From a virus (lineage: Duplodnaviria > Heunggongvirae > Uroviricota > Caudoviricetes): DNA of 31,645 bases. Where the stretch lies: the IMG/VR virus record IMGVR_UViG_3300045988_013781; one strand, 5' to 3'. Made by a program: the position numbers. Positions 15,001 to 21,000 of this stretch are shown piece by piece. Every line of letters starts with the position of its first letter. The first letter of the stretch is position 1.

Positions 15001-18000
15001 ATTGCGTTGCCCCTCATTAAATGCCATTGCCATAGCGTCCATCGGTGAGATAGCGGAAAACACACGGCCTTTCTCCAGCACCGACCAGACAACGCGACGC
15101 CCCTGTTCACTGCTCATGACAAAGCGAATGTCATCAATTTCACGCTGCGCCATGTCACGTTGCTTACGGGCGTTTTCTTCTTTCAGTTGATCGTCTTCGT
15201 AATCTGTCATTGTGATTGCCCACCCTGACCACTAACTGCATTCGCCATAGCTGACAAAACACTCGGATCCGAAGTTTTAGCTTCGCTTAGCGTCTTGGCA
15301 CCCTGTGCCGCCGCCATCCCCATCGCCATCATTTGTTGCTGCTGTTGCTGCTGTGCCCGTTGCTGGCGAGCATGCTCAACCTGTTCCTGCGGAACAATGA
15401 CGGTTGGAGACACTCCGGACATATCAGCGAATGCATCGATCGCCTGATCAACGTTGAGTTTGTCGAGAGCTTCTGGTTTCGCTTGCGCAAGTTGACCAAT
15501 GAAGTTAACCGTGGACGCCAGACTGGACAGGCCGATAGACTTCTGCGCCTGAGCCATGACGGAAATGTATTCGACCTTCAGGGGCATGCCTTCCATCGCG
15601 TCAGGCGGTGGCGGCAGCATGTTTTTACGCACCATCATCGAGAAAGCGCGGTCAATGAGAGGATTAAGACATTCGTCGTTCAGACGCTCCAGAACCGGCC
15701 CCAACATCAGAAGTTTTTCTTCTTTCATTTCGATCACCGCTTCAACAGGCATCGAGCGGGTATTGATGTTCTGCAACATCATGAACAGATCGACAAAGTA
15801 GGCGCTGTTAATGATTTGACGAGTGTCCTGAATGTCTGCCACCAAATCTGCTGTACTGGGGTTAACCAGATAAGCAGGCCTGAAGCCATCCTGACCAGTA
15901 ATCTGATCGATATACGTGATGTCGCCAGGAAGAAGGGAGGCGCGCTGATTCTTGAGGGAAGTCGGAGCAACCATCGGCGGATTGGTGGCTTTATCAATCA
16001 ACTGCGACTTGCGCTTCTGGAGAAGCTGCAATGCCTTAACAGGTCCAAGCGCCAGCATACCAGGGCATGATGATCCATAAACATCTTCGCCGTTAACTTC
16101 CCAGCGCGGAGCCATAATTGGAAACTCATCGAATCCGGACTCACGCAACAACTTGTCGTTATCGCCACCAACCTCGTAATAAACCGATTTGAATGGCTTG
16201 TTCTTGCTATCCAGCTTCGATGTATCGCGGTCAATGTTCGGGTAAACCGAATGCATCACTTCAATCCACTTCTCGTAGGTGCCGCTTTCCCACATGCTTT
16301 TTACGGATTCGCTGACGTTATTTAGCCCGAACTCCCGAACAAGCTGACGAACAGTCATAGAGAACTTGCGAAAACAGGTGTCCACACTGCCACGAGGTGA
16401 GTTAGCCAGGTAGTAACTGCCTATCGGGAATGGCATTGTGCGAATGATGTCCTCGTCATCCTCCAGCACCGCCATTGCACCAGTGCTGTATGTGCCGAGG
16501 CTTCCGTATAACTGCGGAAGAGACTGGTAGAGATTCGACTTATTGAACATATCGTTCATGCGGTTCTGCACCGCCTCAAGCCACAACTTAACAGGGCCAT
16601 AATCCATCATTTCAGGATCTGGCGTAGCCAGGCGAAACCACGGACGCGCGGGGCTTGTGATGCCTGACATCATGCCGCTGGCGAGAGTGCGCGCCGCCAT
16701 AGTCCCGGTCGAATCAATAATGCGTGTATTCCGTCGATCGTTACGGTTGACCTCAGAAGTCAGAAAGCGGGAACCACGCGGGTTGATGTAATCACTCAAC
16801 TCGCGCCAGTGCGGCTCGAACGACTGACGCTCGCTTTCAAGTTGTGCGAACTGTTTGTTCAATCGCTCTTTAGTTGTTTCCGCCATTTCAATGACTCCGG
16901 TTACTGACCAAGCAGCGTTTTACCGCTGGTATTAGCGGTTGATGTGTCGCCCTGAGAACCGGTAAGCAGCGTAGAACTACGACCAGCAGCAGCGCGACGG
17001 CGACGAGTTTCTTCGTCGCGGGCATCAACAACGGCGGCATCCTGCTCCTGTGGTGCTGCCTGAACTTCTGGTGTTGCAGGCACTGATGGTGAGCTACCCA
17101 TGCACATATCAATGACTCCGTACGCAATTAAATTATTACCAATTTAACCACATGTGATTTATTTATCGTAGATACTTGACATTTAACGCACTAATTATTA
17201 CCTTTCAGGTAAGCAAAGAGTTCATTCCGGTTATTAACCTGACTGGCTTGTCGTTAAATTGAACAGGTGGGGTGAGCTTTTATTTTGAGCAGTACGGTGT
17301 ATGGCACATGCGCCGATAGCGGTCTGGATACGTTTAAGGGGCACCCTCCCTTGCTCGGGCAAACGAACCAGGTAGCCGGAATGTGCAAGTCGAGCGGTTT
17401 TATTCCGCGCACGGGGATTCACCATCCCGGCGATTCGGTGTGACACCTCGGAAGAGACGAGGGTGCAACGATGAGAGCATTTATGGAGCCGCGACAAAGT
17501 GTGGTGCCTTAACAGGCTAAGTGCTCTCAGCGTTGTGGCATTAGCTCAGTTGGACAGAGCAACCGCCTTCTAAGCGGTTGGTCGCAGGTTCGAATCCTGC
17601 ATGCCGCGCCAGAATCACGCCTAAGGACCGTGATGCCAGAAGTTCCAGGGGCTTGGCGGTGATGGTTTCCCTTGAAGGACTATCACCGCCATTTTTACAG
17701 CAGGACGCCATTGCGATGACTTCATGCTGTAAACCCGTACAGCCACGGAAGGCATAACTCATTGCTTCCAGTTCGCCCGGTTCGCCGGGCATTTTTTTGC
17801 CTGATGACCACAAATTACCTTAAAGGTATAATCATGAAAAACTTTAAGGTAATTAGTATGTTCGAATCGTTCAAAGAGCTGTTTTTATCTACTGCCAATA
17901 CTGCCGTGCATCGAGCTAAAAACCCTGTGCTAGGTGCTTTTGTTATGTCCTGGTGCGCCTTCAACTGGAAATCACTTCTTTATCTATTTTTTAGCAAATC

Positions 18001-21000
18001 AAATATAATAGATAAAATTTCATACATCTCAGATAACAGCACATGGAAAACTGTTATGTTTTATCCATGCTTATCTGTAATTACTATCTGCTGCCTATTA
18101 CCATGGGTAAACAATATCATTAACGTATGGCAAGCAAAGCCTCTTGATAATAATGACTCAATCGAAAATCACCGGAAGGCAAGAAAAATACAACGTGAAA
18201 CACGGCTACAGAGATTGCTGGCTAAAAAAGACATTACTTACGAAAAAGTAAAAACAGGCGCTGAAAAAAACATTCAAGACATGAAAGAGGAAATAATTCT
18301 TTCAAAAGACAGAATGGGACAACTCACATCTGAATTGAAAGAGAGGGAGACAGAACTGCGCGCAGCACAAGCTCGTATTTTAGAATTATCTAAGGTTATT
18401 CATGAAACAACATCTAAACTAGAAAATCTAGAAAAAGCCCACAAAAATTTAAAAAACGAATATGAGTCCTATAAGAAAAACATTCCTTTGGCAACAAATA
18501 ATACAATTGCTAATGGGTTTGTAGGTCTAAAATCATTACAAGACCTTAATGAGTCCGTAAAGAAACTTGGCGTTACTGGAATTAACAATCCAGAAATCAG
18601 TACATTATTGAATAATCCTCTAGTAAATATAAATGGTGGTTTAAATTCCACCCATCAAAGAAAATCAAAAACACAAAAGTAAAAATCATTCAAATGGGTC
18701 ATAGTCTGTTATAGCCCTGCCCTGCTGCTGCCGTGGGTCATTAGTTTTCTTGGCTACCGGGAACGCAAACGTCAGCAGTAGCGCATCGCCTTTACCCGGC
18801 GAACGCCCAAGCCGCTCCTTGATATCTTCCTTCGGTTCGATAACGATTTTACCGTCCACTCGAACTTTGTACTCTGCCGCCGACAGGTCGTCTGCTGTTT
18901 CCTGGTCATCCAGCATGCCGCCCAGCCTCAGCCATGTCTTGCATGAATTGAACATCTCCCCACGCTTGTTGAGCATCTGCGGGTCAGTAGACGCGCCACC
19001 GAACGGAACAAGTTGCCATGTACGACCCCATCCGTCACCGATTGACTTCAGACCGGTTCCGTAACCGAAGTCGATGAACACCGCGTCAGCCTGATACTGG
19101 TCTTCAAAGTCAGCGATACGCTTCGCCATAATCAGATCGTCGGTAGTCTTGTTGCCAGTCCACAGCACCTTACTGTGTAGCCCCTGCCGCAGGTATATCA
19201 CCGCGTCATCAACGCCTGAATATGCCGGGTCAACACCGATTATCACCGGAGCATGCGCCACCTGCGCAGCGGTTACCACCCGTTTCATTGCCTCATCAGT
19301 AAGACCGGTAGGGATAAACTGCAATTCAGATGCATCAGGGAATATGCCGCGCACACGGATTTTAACGAAGTCGCTGTCTTCCCCGTAGTCATCAACCCAT
19401 TTCTGCAACTGCTGTTTGTTAGTGCCTTCCACCGTCCGGCTGTCAATCTGCGCAGTTTTCCAGCGGTGTTTATATTTGCGGAAACATTCGCGGAAACGCC
19501 CGGTGTTACGTGTAGGGTTTCCGAATGCCACCCAGATAATCTCAGTGTCTTCGTCCGTCAGCGCACCCTCTGCTACCTCCCACACCAGATCGGCAATGTT
19601 GGATGCTTCGTCGAATACCACGATGATGCGTTTGCGCTCGTTGTGTAGTCCGGCGAATGCCTCAGTGTTGTGCTCAGACCAGGGGATTGCGTCAGCTCGC
19701 CACCGCTTGTCGTGCCCAGGGTCATTGCTGTACATCGCGGTAGCGGTACAGGTAAACCAGTCTTTCGTGATAGCAAGGTTCGACCACTTGATAATTTCCG
19801 GCCAGGTCTTCGTTCGTAGCTGGTTGTCGGTGTTGGCGGTCACCACGACCTTACAATCCTCGCAAGTGGACATGCCCCAGTTGATCAGCATTGAGATGAA
19901 TGCGGATTTACCAATACCGTGACCCGAAGCGCGTGCCAGCATAAGCGGCTGATAGCGCGTCTCTGGATTCTGCAGGTGATCACGTATCTCTCGGAACGCA
20001 TCAGCCTGCCACTGACGTGGGCCGGTAGCATGTGCCAGTTCAGTCCCCTCTTCCCCCCACGGGAACGCATAGAGGGCATAGCCAAGCGGATCGTGAGTGA
20101 ACCCTGCAATATCCTCGATCAACTGCTCTTCAGGAGATAACGCTGTATCTGTCACTGATTACCATCCTGACGTTCTTTGAGTCGCTTCCTGGCTGCCGCT
20201 ATGCGATCAGCAATTGTCACATTCACATTAACATCCAGGCGTTCTTTGAATGCGTTGACGTCGACGTGCTTACCAATCAGTTCGAGGTTCTTCACCTTGT
20301 CAGGCCATTTAATTTTTTTGAGGATTGTCTCTATCGAATCCTCGTTCATGTTCATGATGGTCGATGACAGATCAAAGCCACTAAGCGTAGTGCGCCAGAT
20401 TTTCGGCCACTCGCGGATTGGCTTAAGGCTCCCATCGTCGTTGAGGATATCAATCACGTCCATCTGGTCGATCTCCACCAGGCGCATGAGAACGTAATCG
20501 GCACTGACGCGCATTCGTTTGTTGCGCTCCTCCATCAACTCGGCAATCCGTTTTTGAATGCGTTCATCGCGCATCATGACACTGGCTTTAACTGCCGCTG
20601 TATTTGGGGAGAATCCTGCGTTAATCGCTGCCTGAGTCTGGTTTTCAGGCGTTTTGATGTATGACTGGCAATAAGCCTCCTGCATTGCGGTTAGTGGCTT
20701 AAATTGCGTTGATTTGCGTTTATAGGTTTTAGGTTCAGCAGGCATCATAACCACCCTGGTAATTGTTACCGTTGTGGTAATAGTACCATGCAAAATAAAG
20801 CCGCCATAGTTGGCGGCAGTATTCAAAACCCATCAAATTCATCATGCATAATCTACTCGTGACATGTCACACTATTAATTTAGTTTCATGCCAGCCTTTA
20901 GTCACCCAGCATTGCGAGTCACCATTACACGGGCATGAATTAACGGGAACTTTCTCGCCGCACTTACCGCAACGTTTTCTGCTAATCGATTTTATACGCC

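What the first reader, a model, noticed from the sequence alone, without database searches (positions are those of the whole stretch)
17176..18682. Plus-strand insert between terminase and portal: tRNA-Arg(UCU) plus an AT-rich membrane/coiled-coil gene, each under an operator-bearing promoter
This opposite-strand module interrupts the minus-strand late operon. It contains an operator palindrome by a TTGACA hexamer, a roughly 320-nt leader, an intact tRNA-Arg(UCU) with CCA (17535-17611), two hairpin/T-tract terminators that are directional for the plus strand only, a TATAAT promoter overlapping a near-operator site, and a 274-aa protein with two predicted transmembrane segments and a long heptad-rich charged domain. 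The gene is strongly AT-rich and uses AGA/AGG arginine codons, which the adjacent tRNA decodes. The whole arrangement looks like a horizontally acquired, lysogeny-expressed cargo unit that brings its own decoder. The architecture (membrane anchor plus coiled coil, small, single gene) is typical of superinfection-exclusion or abortive-infection proteins, but I recognise no family. This is my top candidate for an undescribed function in the window.
Basis: partly seen in the sequence, partly recalled or inferred. Interest (0 to 1): 0.85.

Follow-up and report, generated by a model that had tools for sequence, protein, structure and literature searches.

The report
Phage tRNA, leader RNA, membrane gene

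Summary
There is an intact tRNA-Arg(UCU) at 17535-17611. Two plus-strand-only terminators follow it. Two sigma-70-like promoters each overlap a palindrome matching the prophage's own operator motif (15 sites in the window against 1.9 expected). The AT-rich 274-aa ORF has one strong and one borderline hydrophobic segment and a 75-residue unbroken heptad helix.

The window is a Uetakevirus (epsilon15/phiV10-like) prophage, and this plus-strand unit is a fixed feature of that group. The gene belongs to a widespread, uncharacterised family (phrog_4780) that mostly occupies this same slot. Most copies have no tRNA, and their AGA/AGG use is no higher when the tRNA is present, so the gene does not bring its own decoder. 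The operators overlap the -10 regions and are retained specifically in Uetakevirus contexts. That predicts repression in the lysogen, not lysogenic expression.

No homology or fold match gives a function. I favour an early-expressed membrane protein acting in phage-phage or phage-host conflict, with low confidence.

The unexpected result is the 320-nt leader. It is a covariation-supported structured RNA with a pseudoknot, absent from Rfam, present in 1837 of 5426 E. coli genomes. It usually sits at the start of the early-left transcript next to cI.

The parts
17176..17204 (+). Promoter-like site P1: TTGACA, 17 nt, TACCTT
   Evidence: Read from the sequence. The same architecture is present in epsilon15 and in Salmonella Uetakevirus contigs. 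The -10 is too weak for the scanner.
17198..17212 (.). Operator O(17198), TTACCTTTCAGGTAA, overlapping the -10 and start site of P1
   Evidence: Exact match to the window's operator motif. The equivalent site in the epsilon15 record is annotated 'repressor, lysogeny'.
17291..17465 (+). Core of the structured leader RNA. P1 hairpin 17295-17315. P2 17319-17327 paired with 17368-17376. Invariant 19-mer 17371-17389. P4 17414-17417 paired with 17425-17428. Pseudoknot 17420-17423 paired with 17437-17440. P5 17444-17450 paired with 17458-17465.
   Evidence: Across 45 sequences, 93.5% of cells are paired and 14 pairs change on both sides; 0 of 500 shuffles reach this, and slid controls give 25-45%. 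G-U pairs fix the strand as plus. No Rfam hit. nhmmer finds one copy in the window.
17466..17535 (+). Closing stem P6 of the leader (17466-17479 paired with 17522-17535) around a variable insert. Its last base is G1 of the tRNA.
   Evidence: Many compensatory variants of both strands across 39 distinct versions. The single-sequence fold predicts the same stem.
17535..17611 (+). tRNA-Arg, anticodon UCU, CCA encoded
   Evidence: ARAGORN; Rfam tRNA 69.4 bits; annotated tRNA-Arg in RefSeq and GenBank relatives.
17654..17697 (+). Intrinsic terminator 1 (15-bp stem plus TTTTT)
   Evidence: plus strand only.
17775..17798 (+). Intrinsic terminator 2 (GCCCGG-TTCG-CCGGGC plus ATTTTTTT)
   Evidence: The surrounding ~80 nt travel with the gene into lambdoid prophages, and also precede the alternative slot gene in phiV10 and epsilon15.
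17804..17832 (+). Promoter-like site P2: ATGACC, 17 nt, TATAAT
   Evidence: 10 of 12 matches. The architecture is kept upstream of homologues.
17815..17829 (.). Operator O(17815), TTACCTTAAAGGTAT, in the spacer and -10 of P2
   Evidence: One mismatch to the motif. Retained in 33 of 37 Uetakevirus-slot contexts against 2 of 19 other contexts.
17858..18682 (+). 274-aa membrane and coiled-coil protein, phrog_4780 family. Conserved N-terminal ~160 aa, hypervariable C-terminus.

Best explanation
This is a conserved, repressor-controlled, plus-strand early transcription unit of Uetakevirus (epsilon15/phiV10-like) prophages. It is built from separable modules.

In the lysogen, the HTH repressor (gene 25962-26546) is predicted to sit on operators over the -10 of P1 (17198-17212) and over the spacer and -10 of P2 (17815-17829). 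That would keep both promoters off. This step is inferred from geometry and conservation.

On induction or fresh infection, RNA polymerase starting at P1 makes a ~320-nt structured leader RNA (helices P1-P6 plus a pseudoknot). The last helix of the leader abuts the tRNA. RNase P cutting at 17534/17535 would release tRNA-Arg(UCU) and the leader (inferred). Two intrinsic terminators then end most transcripts.

The tRNA supplements decoding of rare AGA/AGG codons for the phage as a whole, not for the neighbouring gene in particular.

The AT-rich gene is transcribed from P2, and from any read-through of the terminators. It encodes an inner-membrane-anchored protein: N-terminus in the cytoplasm, a hairpin of one weak and one strong hydrophobic helix, then a basic juxtamembrane stretch and a ~75-residue cytoplasmic coiled coil with a hypervariable tail.

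My best guess for its role is an early-made conflict protein. That could be superinfection exclusion, an abortive-infection-like function, or an anti-host function at the inner membrane. In this reading the conserved membrane domain is the working part and the variable coiled coil and tail set partner specificity. This last step is inference only.
For: Phage identity and conservation of the unit.

Operator motif: 15 sites against 1.9 expected, with three in the cro/repressor intergenic region. The repressor candidate has HTH_3. The equivalent epsilon15 site is annotated as a repressor site.

Operator upstream of the gene: at most 2 mismatches in 33 of 37 slot contexts, 2 of 19 elsewhere, and 0 of 37 in control DNA inside the gene. 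A lambdoid Klebsiella prophage carrying the gene uses a different operator type.

tRNA.

Independence of tRNA and gene. Codon counts.

Leader structure. P6 abuts tRNA G1. At the equivalent junction in mEp460-like prophages, a published 5'-RACE end starts the 193-nt 'sRNA-17'. That paper's RNA-seq counts in lysogens are a handful of reads (PMC7719688).

Protein: family alignment, conserved N-terminus and variable C-terminus. 143 representative clusters at E <= 1e-10. TM and heptad measures. AF2 helices. 11 K/R against 6 D/E directly after the second hydrophobic segment. Family-wide low GC, 0.36 against 0.54 in the flanks.
Against: No expression data exist for this phage. Both promoters are consensus matches only, and promoter-like sites in the region are no more frequent than in shuffles (5 found, 4.0 expected). 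The -10 of P1 is weak.

Repressor binding is inferred from motif statistics, not shown. A repressor site can also activate or loop DNA.

The first hydrophobic segment is borderline, so the topology could be single-pass with the coiled coil outside.

Nothing links the protein to defence: PADLOC gave only coiled-coil noise, and the fold searches were empty. The AF2 model is only moderate (pLDDT 70, pTM 0.28).

The function of the leader RNA is unknown.
Confidence: 0.5

Rival explanations
1. This is a horizontally acquired moron, expressed in the lysogen, which excludes or aborts superinfecting phages and carries its own tRNA to decode its AGA/AGG codons.
For: Low GC. Its own promoter-like site. 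The opposite-strand position. The slot holds different genes in different relatives. In lambdoid prophages the gene sits as a lone opposite-strand gene without a cognate operator, so there it may well be expressed in lysogeny. 5 of 11 Arg codons are AGR.
Against: Cognate operators lie over both promoters and are selectively retained in this phage group. The tRNA is absent from most family loci, with no positive link to AGR usage. The phage's other genes hold 16 times more AGR codons. There is no clear terminator after the gene. No defence-family match was found.
Confidence: 0.2
2. The leader RNA is a cis-acting processive antiterminator, like put of HK022 or a nut-type site. Polymerase that has transcribed it reads through both terminators. 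The whole plus-strand insert is then one early operon: leader, tRNA, gene.
For: In at least 47 of 70 contexts the element lies 120-150 nt downstream of a CI-type repressor gene. In phage Ayreon it follows an annotated terminator and promoter, which is where nutL or putL sit. No N-like gene is annotated in the mEp460 early-left operon, and the first cdtI ORF has no arginine-rich motif. In phiV10 and epsilon15 the slot gene follows terminator 2 by about 15 nt with no promoter of its own. Unpaired nucleotides are strongly conserved.
Against: There is no sequence similarity to HK022 put; the only match is a 13-mer inside nun. There is one copy per phage, not a left/right pair. In P1 it lies 2.3 kb from the ban promoter. 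Same-strand terminators are not enriched downstream (50 against 74 on the opposite strand). A canonical boxA is present in only 2 of 125 contexts. epsilon15 keeps the slot gene but only a stump of the element.
Confidence: 0.25
3. The protein is a lysis or morphogenesis accessory, for example an i-spanin-like or holin-regulating membrane protein, rather than a conflict protein.
For: A membrane anchor plus coiled coil is also the i-spanin plan (my own knowledge). The gene lies between the terminase and portal genes. It is predicted to be expressed in lytic growth.
Against: No Pfam, PHROG-function, PDB or BFVD match to lysis or virion proteins. No embedded or adjacent plus-strand ORF that could be an o-spanin. 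It is not in a lysis cassette. It is dispensable in phiV10 and epsilon15, which carry a Phage_gp49_66 gene instead. The basic stretch after the second hydrophobic segment favours a cytoplasmic coiled coil. The gene also occurs in lambdoid prophages next to replication and nin genes.
Confidence: 0.07

Closest known systems
The gp2-gp3 intergenic unit of Salmonella phage epsilon15 (record NC_004775) and of phiV10-group phages
   Same: Same position between the large terminase and the portal operon. Same TTGACA-17-TACCTT site with a TTACCT-N3-AGGTAA palindrome, annotated there as a repressor site. Same plus-strand terminator 2, followed by a plus-strand accessory gene. The phiV10 group shares 17100-17798 at 98% identity, including the tRNA.
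   Different: epsilon15 has no tRNA and only the first ~50 nt of the leader RNA. Both carry a Phage_gp49_66 family gene without its own promoter, instead of the membrane/coiled-coil gene.
phrog_4780, a PHROG family of unknown function
   Same: The protein matches at E = 7.5e-122 over its full length from Met 17858.
   Different: The family has no assigned function, so membership says only that the gene is a recurrent phage gene.
The sRNA-17 locus of an mEp460-like prophage in E. coli K1 RS218 (Front Microbiol 2020, PMC7719688)
   Same: The fragment that paper used as 'promoter of sRNA-17' is, primer for primer, the structured leader described here (core plus P6). The RACE 5' end of sRNA-17 (CGTTGTGG...) lies at the same junction where the tRNA starts in this window.
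   Different: There the downstream module is a 193-nt sRNA ending in a terminator, not a tRNA. The paper treats the upstream 250 nt as promoter DNA with ArcA sites, not as RNA.
HK022 putL and lambda nutL leaders (PMC9378689; textbook lambda biology)
   Same: A cis RNA at the 5' end of a repressor-controlled early transcript next to cI.
   Different: About 175-245 nt with a pseudoknot and six helices, against ~70 nt and two stem-loops. No sequence similarity. A single copy per phage. No antitermination activity has been shown.
The C1-controlled ban operon of phage P1
   Same: It contains the same RNA core (about 80% identity) next to a tRNA gene, in an operon with repressor operators at its promoter.
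   Different: In P1 the element follows tRNA-Ile and precedes the ban helicase gene, 2.3 kb from the promoter. No membrane/coiled-coil gene is present.
Small membrane superinfection-exclusion proteins (T4 Imm and Sp, P22 SieA, lambda and P22 SieB); comparison from my own knowledge
   Same: Small phage-encoded inner-membrane proteins in accessory positions. The T4 examples are early lytic genes.
   Different: No detectable sequence or fold relation: a Pfam scan at E <= 1 lists no exclusion family. The long coiled coil and hypervariable tail have no counterpart in them.

Membership tests
tRNA (Rfam RF00005), isoacceptor Arg-UCU | Cloverleaf scoring above the covariance-model threshold, with anticodon UCU at position 35 | tested here: met
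   69.4 bits against a gathering score of 29. ARAGORN reports anticodon tct.
phrog_4780 | Full-length profile match | tested here: met
   E = 7.5e-122; residues 9-281 of the 282-aa reading against profile positions 1-268 of 275.
Moron (as defined for HK97-type phages; my own knowledge) | Own promoter upstream and own terminator downstream | tested here: inconclusive
   A promoter-like site matching 10 of 12 lies upstream. Only a weak terminator-like site (18721-18737) lies inside the converging terminase gene.
Moron | Base composition unlike the surrounding phage genes | tested here: met
   GC 0.32-0.38 against about 0.52. Family-wide, 0.36 against 0.54.
Moron | Expressed from the repressed prophage | not testable with these tools
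   The operator over the promoter argues against it here. RNA data are needed.
Known anti-phage defence systems (PADLOC-DB 2.0) | Profile match to a defence protein beyond low-complexity or coiled-coil regions | tested here: not met
   Best hits (LmuB, DruC, JetC, PD-Lambda-1; E 7.6e-5 to 0.04) all fall on residues ~105-245, the coiled coil.
Two-component spanin, inner-membrane subunit (Rz type; my own knowledge) | N-terminal anchor, periplasmic coiled coil, partner lipoprotein gene embedded or adjacent, located in the lysis cassette | tested here: not met
   No second plus-strand ORF of 40 aa or more in or next to the gene. It lies between terminase and portal, not in a lysis cassette. Charge bias favours a cytoplasmic coil. 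No spanin family hit.
Any Rfam 15 RNA family (for the leader) | Covariance-model match | tested here: not met
   With permissive filters and E up to 10, the only hits in 17100-17850 are the tRNA and noise at the terminators.
HK022 put RNA | About 70 nt, two stem-loops, with one copy after PL and one after PR | tested here: not met
   No similarity to the HK022 immunity region. The element is 175-245 nt. One copy per locus in 140 of 141 loci.
HK022 put RNA | Makes RNA polymerase terminator-resistant | not testable with these tools
   Needs transcription assays.
Lambda-type nut site | boxA (CGCTCTTA or GCTCTTTA) followed by a short boxB hairpin, plus an N-type protein gene | tested here: inconclusive
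   The window has TGCTCTCA, which is the 3' strand of helix P6. A canonical boxA is present in 2 of 125 contexts. No N gene is annotated in mEp460.

The most novel reading that the evidence does not exclude
The ~175-245-nt leader (17291-17535) is a new, widespread class of structured phage RNA with six helices and a pseudoknot. It is carried by Uetakeviruses, SfV/mEp460-type and other lambdoid phages, and P1-like plasmid prophages. It marks the start of repressor-controlled early transcripts. It acts either as an RNA-only antiterminator or as a processing scaffold that launches downstream small RNAs (tRNA-Arg here, 'sRNA-17' elsewhere). The membrane/coiled-coil gene it precedes would then be an early-expressed conflict gene of a new family.
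Probability: 0.45. Interest if true: 0.75.

Novelty: new variant of a known kind. Interest (0 to 1): 0.55.

Why it matters
Three points follow.

1. The membrane/coiled-coil protein family is large (143 clusters at 50% identity). It is AT-rich and hypervariable at one end, and it is tied to one slot of a common prophage group. That is the signature of an arms-race gene, yet it has no known function. The regulatory reading given here changes which experiment makes sense: test it during early lytic growth, not only in lysogens.

2. The idea that a cargo gene brings its own tRNA is attractive and often repeated. Here it can be rejected with counts.

3. A structured RNA that is present in a third of complete E. 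coli genomes, missing from Rfam and unannotated by the RefSeq pipeline, and previously handled as promoter DNA, is a concrete new object for people who study phage early transcription and RNA processing. If it proves to be an RNA-only antiterminator, it would be the second kind known after HK022 put.

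Tried and rejected
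- **HK022 put homology.** The only match was a 13-mer inside the nun coding region, which I take as chance.
- **boxA reading of GTGCTCTCAGCG.** The string is one strand of helix P6, so it occurs equally on both strands. A canonical boxA is rare.
- **Terminators enriched after the leader.** Not seen; the opposite strand had more.
- **Decayed tRNA genes in the leader.** Neither ARAGORN nor the Rfam tRNA model at E <= 10 finds any.
- **Protein coding in the leader.** Rejected because indels are not in threes and base pairs covary.
- **Alternative RNA pairings** (GCACAU:AUGUGC long-range, and the GGUG-UGA-CACC hairpin). Neither has covariation, and the hairpin is broken where the pseudoknot is kept.
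- **Protein searches.** Pfam, NCBIfam, PADLOC, PDB sequence profiles, Foldseek against PDB and BFVD, and a Pfam scan of 60 distant relatives gave only coiled-coil noise.
- **A second profile search of the 5.8-billion-protein set** returned the same close relatives and added nothing.
- **The RS218 genome** is not in the E. coli collection, so sRNA-17 was mapped through the paper's primers instead.
- **A minus-strand sigma-70 promoter for the portal operon near the operator.** None was found.

Full report
**What the window is.** The region 17100-17798 is 98% identical to phiV10, TL-2011b and the O157 typing phages 9 and 10 (genus Uetakevirus). RefSeq relatives annotate the neighbours as portal, Bbp19, protease and capsid on one side, and large and small terminase on the other. 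The window also holds an integrase, lambda-P and DnaT-type replication genes, and an HTH_3 repressor candidate. It is therefore an almost complete epsilon15/phiV10-like prophage of E. coli.

- ARAGORN and Rfam both call tRNA-Arg(UCU) at 17535-17611.
- The scanner finds two plus-strand terminators (17654-17691 and 17775-17790, each followed by a T-tract). It finds none on the minus strand in that interval.
- It finds a 10-of-12 promoter match at 17804-17832. The upstream TTGACA (17176) has a weak -10, TACCTT, 17 nt away.
- The ORF is AT-rich, GC about 0.34 against 0.52. Every homologue starts at the Met corresponding to 17858, so the 274-aa reading is right and the 282-aa RefSeq call is probably too long.
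- Residues 65-85 are strongly hydrophobic (Kyte-Doolittle 2.02). Residues 27-45 are borderline (1.19).
- Residues 134-208 form one predicted helix (pLDDT about 95) with 81% hydrophobic a/d positions in an unbroken heptad register.

**The palindromes are operators of this phage.** Three copies of TTACCY-N3-RGGTAA lie between the cro-like gene and the repressor gene. The motif occurs 15 times in the window at up to 2 mismatches against 1.9 expected, and 0 of 100 shuffles reach that number. The site at 17198-17212 is an exact match; the site at 17815-17829 has one mismatch. The epsilon15 GenBank record annotates the equivalent of the first site as a repressor site.

Each site overlaps the -10 (P1) or the spacer and -10 (P2) of its promoter. 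That geometry normally means repression.

The second site is not just baggage of the gene. I compared 56 distinct upstream regions of family members in viral contigs. A palindrome with at most 2 mismatches is present in 33 of 37 that lie in the portal/terminase slot, in 2 of 19 that lie elsewhere, and in 0 of 37 control stretches inside the gene. A lambdoid Klebsiella prophage that carries the gene uses a different operator type (TTAGA...TCTAA).

I conclude that in Uetakeviruses both plus-strand promoters are under the prophage repressor. This is an inference; no binding or expression data exist for this phage.

**The gene and the tRNA are independent modules.**
- The phiV10 group has the same leader, tRNA and terminators, but a Phage_gp49_66 gene in the slot.
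- epsilon15 has that gene and no tRNA.
- Klebsiella lambdoid prophages and phage KO-TP1 carry the membrane/coiled-coil gene between the replication and nin genes, with no tRNA.
- Of 80 viral loci with family members (25-66% identity), at least 53 lie in the portal/terminase slot. 46 of the 80 have the leader RNA within 900 nt upstream, but only 20 have the tRNA.
- Family genes without an adjacent tRNA use AGA/AGG at 25.4 per 1000 codons. Those with it use 17.1 per 1000 (Mann-Whitney p = 0.10, in the wrong direction for a decoder link).
- In this window the gene has 5 AGR codons. The other ORFs have about 81, a rough count from greedy ORF calls.

The tRNA is best read as a general supplement for the phage.

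**The protein.** It belongs to phrog_4780, function unknown. The 1.84-billion-protein representative library holds 143 clusters at E <= 1e-10. All named members are 'hypothetical protein' from Enterobacteriaceae.

The first ~160 residues are conserved. They include an NPxxGAFxxSWxxFNW stretch, invariant W32 and N36, and two prolines in the second hydrophobic helix. Beyond about residue 160 the sequences cannot be aligned. Family genes are AT-rich almost everywhere, with median GC 0.36 against 0.54 in the flanks, and 74 of 80 are lower by more than 0.08.

No Pfam, NCBIfam, PADLOC, PDB-sequence, Foldseek-PDB or Foldseek-BFVD match goes beyond coiled-coil noise. The stretch after the second hydrophobic helix has 11 K/R against 6 D/E. 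That favours a cytoplasmic coiled coil.

This gives a fixed slot, high divergence, a conserved membrane part, a hypervariable tail and predicted early expression. From these I favour a conflict role (exclusion, abortive-infection-like or anti-host), with low confidence. Nothing tested here shows it.

**The leader is the surprise.** BLAST shows that 17294-17480 is 70-84% identical to unannotated DNA in several phage groups:
- P1, P7 and D6, between tRNA-Ile and ban in the C1-controlled ban operon;
- cdtI, mEp460, mEp390, Ayreon and Stx2c phages, just downstream of cI on the same strand;
- other enterobacterial phages.

An exact 19-mer (GGTAGCCGGAATGTGCAAG, 17371-17389) retrieved at least 120 viral contigs and genomes of many enterobacterial genera.

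On a 45-sequence alignment I proposed helices P1, P2, P4 and P5 and a pseudoknot between the UUCACCA loop and GGUG. This structure is 93.5% paired, and 14 pairs change on both sides (101 cells). No shuffle of 500 reaches this, and slid controls give 25-45% pairing. Two competing pairings show no covariation. A sixth helix (P6) closes a variable insert of 31-260 nt and has many compensatory versions. Invariant G-U pairs fix the plus strand as the RNA strand.

Rfam 15 has no match even at E = 10. The core is in 1837 of 5426 complete E. coli genomes, up to four copies each, with nothing annotated under it. It occurs once in this window, and only as a stump in epsilon15.

**Where the leader sits.**
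- In at least 47 of 70 contexts the upstream gene ends like an S24 CI repressor, 120-150 nt away.
- The Ayreon record places a terminator and a promoter between cI and the element.
- Most copies have no tRNA: 34 of 132 contexts have tRNA-Arg downstream, 14 have the P1-type tRNA upstream, and 84 have none.

So it is a leader of repressor-controlled early transcripts, not a tRNA leader as such.

A 2020 paper on 'sRNA-17' of E. coli K1 used exactly this element as the 'promoter fragment'. It mapped the 5' end of the 193-nt sRNA to the junction right after P6. In our window, that is the position where the tRNA begins (PMC7719688). This fits a processing site at the base of P6. The very low read counts in that paper's lysogen data fit repression.

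Whether the RNA is an antiterminator, a processing scaffold or something else is open. Its position, and the promoter-less slot gene of phiV10 and epsilon15 behind terminator 2, speak for antitermination. Four things speak against it: no put similarity, a single copy per phage, no terminator enrichment, and rare boxA.

**Verdict.** The 'lysogeny-expressed cargo with its own decoder' reading is not supported. The protein remains an interesting unknown. The leader RNA deserves its own study.

Noticed in passing
window 47-123 (minus strand); operator-like site at 160-174: An isrK-family Hfq-binding sRNA (Rfam RF01394, 56.8 bits against a gathering score of 50) lies at the left end of the window. 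A one-mismatch copy of the phage operator motif sits 40 nt away.
   Followed up: no
window 679-1050 (minus strand): A second AT-rich ORF (123 aa, GC 0.33) with a signal-peptide-like N-terminus (MNRIILMIILMLLVVKSFA...), just downstream of the 850-aa ORF 1052-3604 (function not established). It has no Pfam match and is another accessory-gene candidate.
   Followed up: partly
window 20766-20780, 23543-23557, 23605-23619, 25507-25521, 26604-26618, 26666-26680: Further copies of the operator motif are scattered through the prophage, including pairs at 23.5 kb and just downstream of the repressor gene. The repressor seems to control many separate promoters, as C1 does in phage P1.
   Followed up: partly
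L038 (IMG/VR contig 2791355294_000005), 4796-4960 and 3989-4155: This is the only locus of 141 with two copies of the leader RNA core, about 800 nt apart on the same strand.
   Followed up: no
L115 3518-3900; L018 and L024 (SPN1S type): In some versions the variable insert inside helix P6 contains T-arm-like sequence (GGTTCGATTCC or GGTTCAATTCC). tRNA-like pieces may therefore be embedded in the leader as well as following it. Not checked with a tRNA finder on those stretches alone.
   Followed up: no
L002 3699-3716; L014 2712-2726: In phiV10-group phages and epsilon15, the alternative slot gene (Phage_gp49_66 family) starts about 15 nt after the T-tract of terminator 2, with only a ribosome-binding site between. 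It has no promoter of its own and must depend on read-through.
   Followed up: partly
window 17834-17857: RefSeq relatives annotate the gene from ATG 17834 (282 aa). All homologues and the PHROG profile start at Met 17858. The predicted start site of P2 (~17839) lies downstream of 17834, so the database start is probably wrong. A 9-bp inverted repeat (ACCTTAAAG/CTTTAAGGT) brackets 17834.
   Followed up: partly
L100, L044, L057 (viral contigs), just after helix P5: A few leader variants lack P6. Instead they have an opposite-strand terminator-like hairpin followed by a canonical rrn-type boxA (GCTCTTTAACAA or GCTCTTTAAAAA).
   Followed up: no
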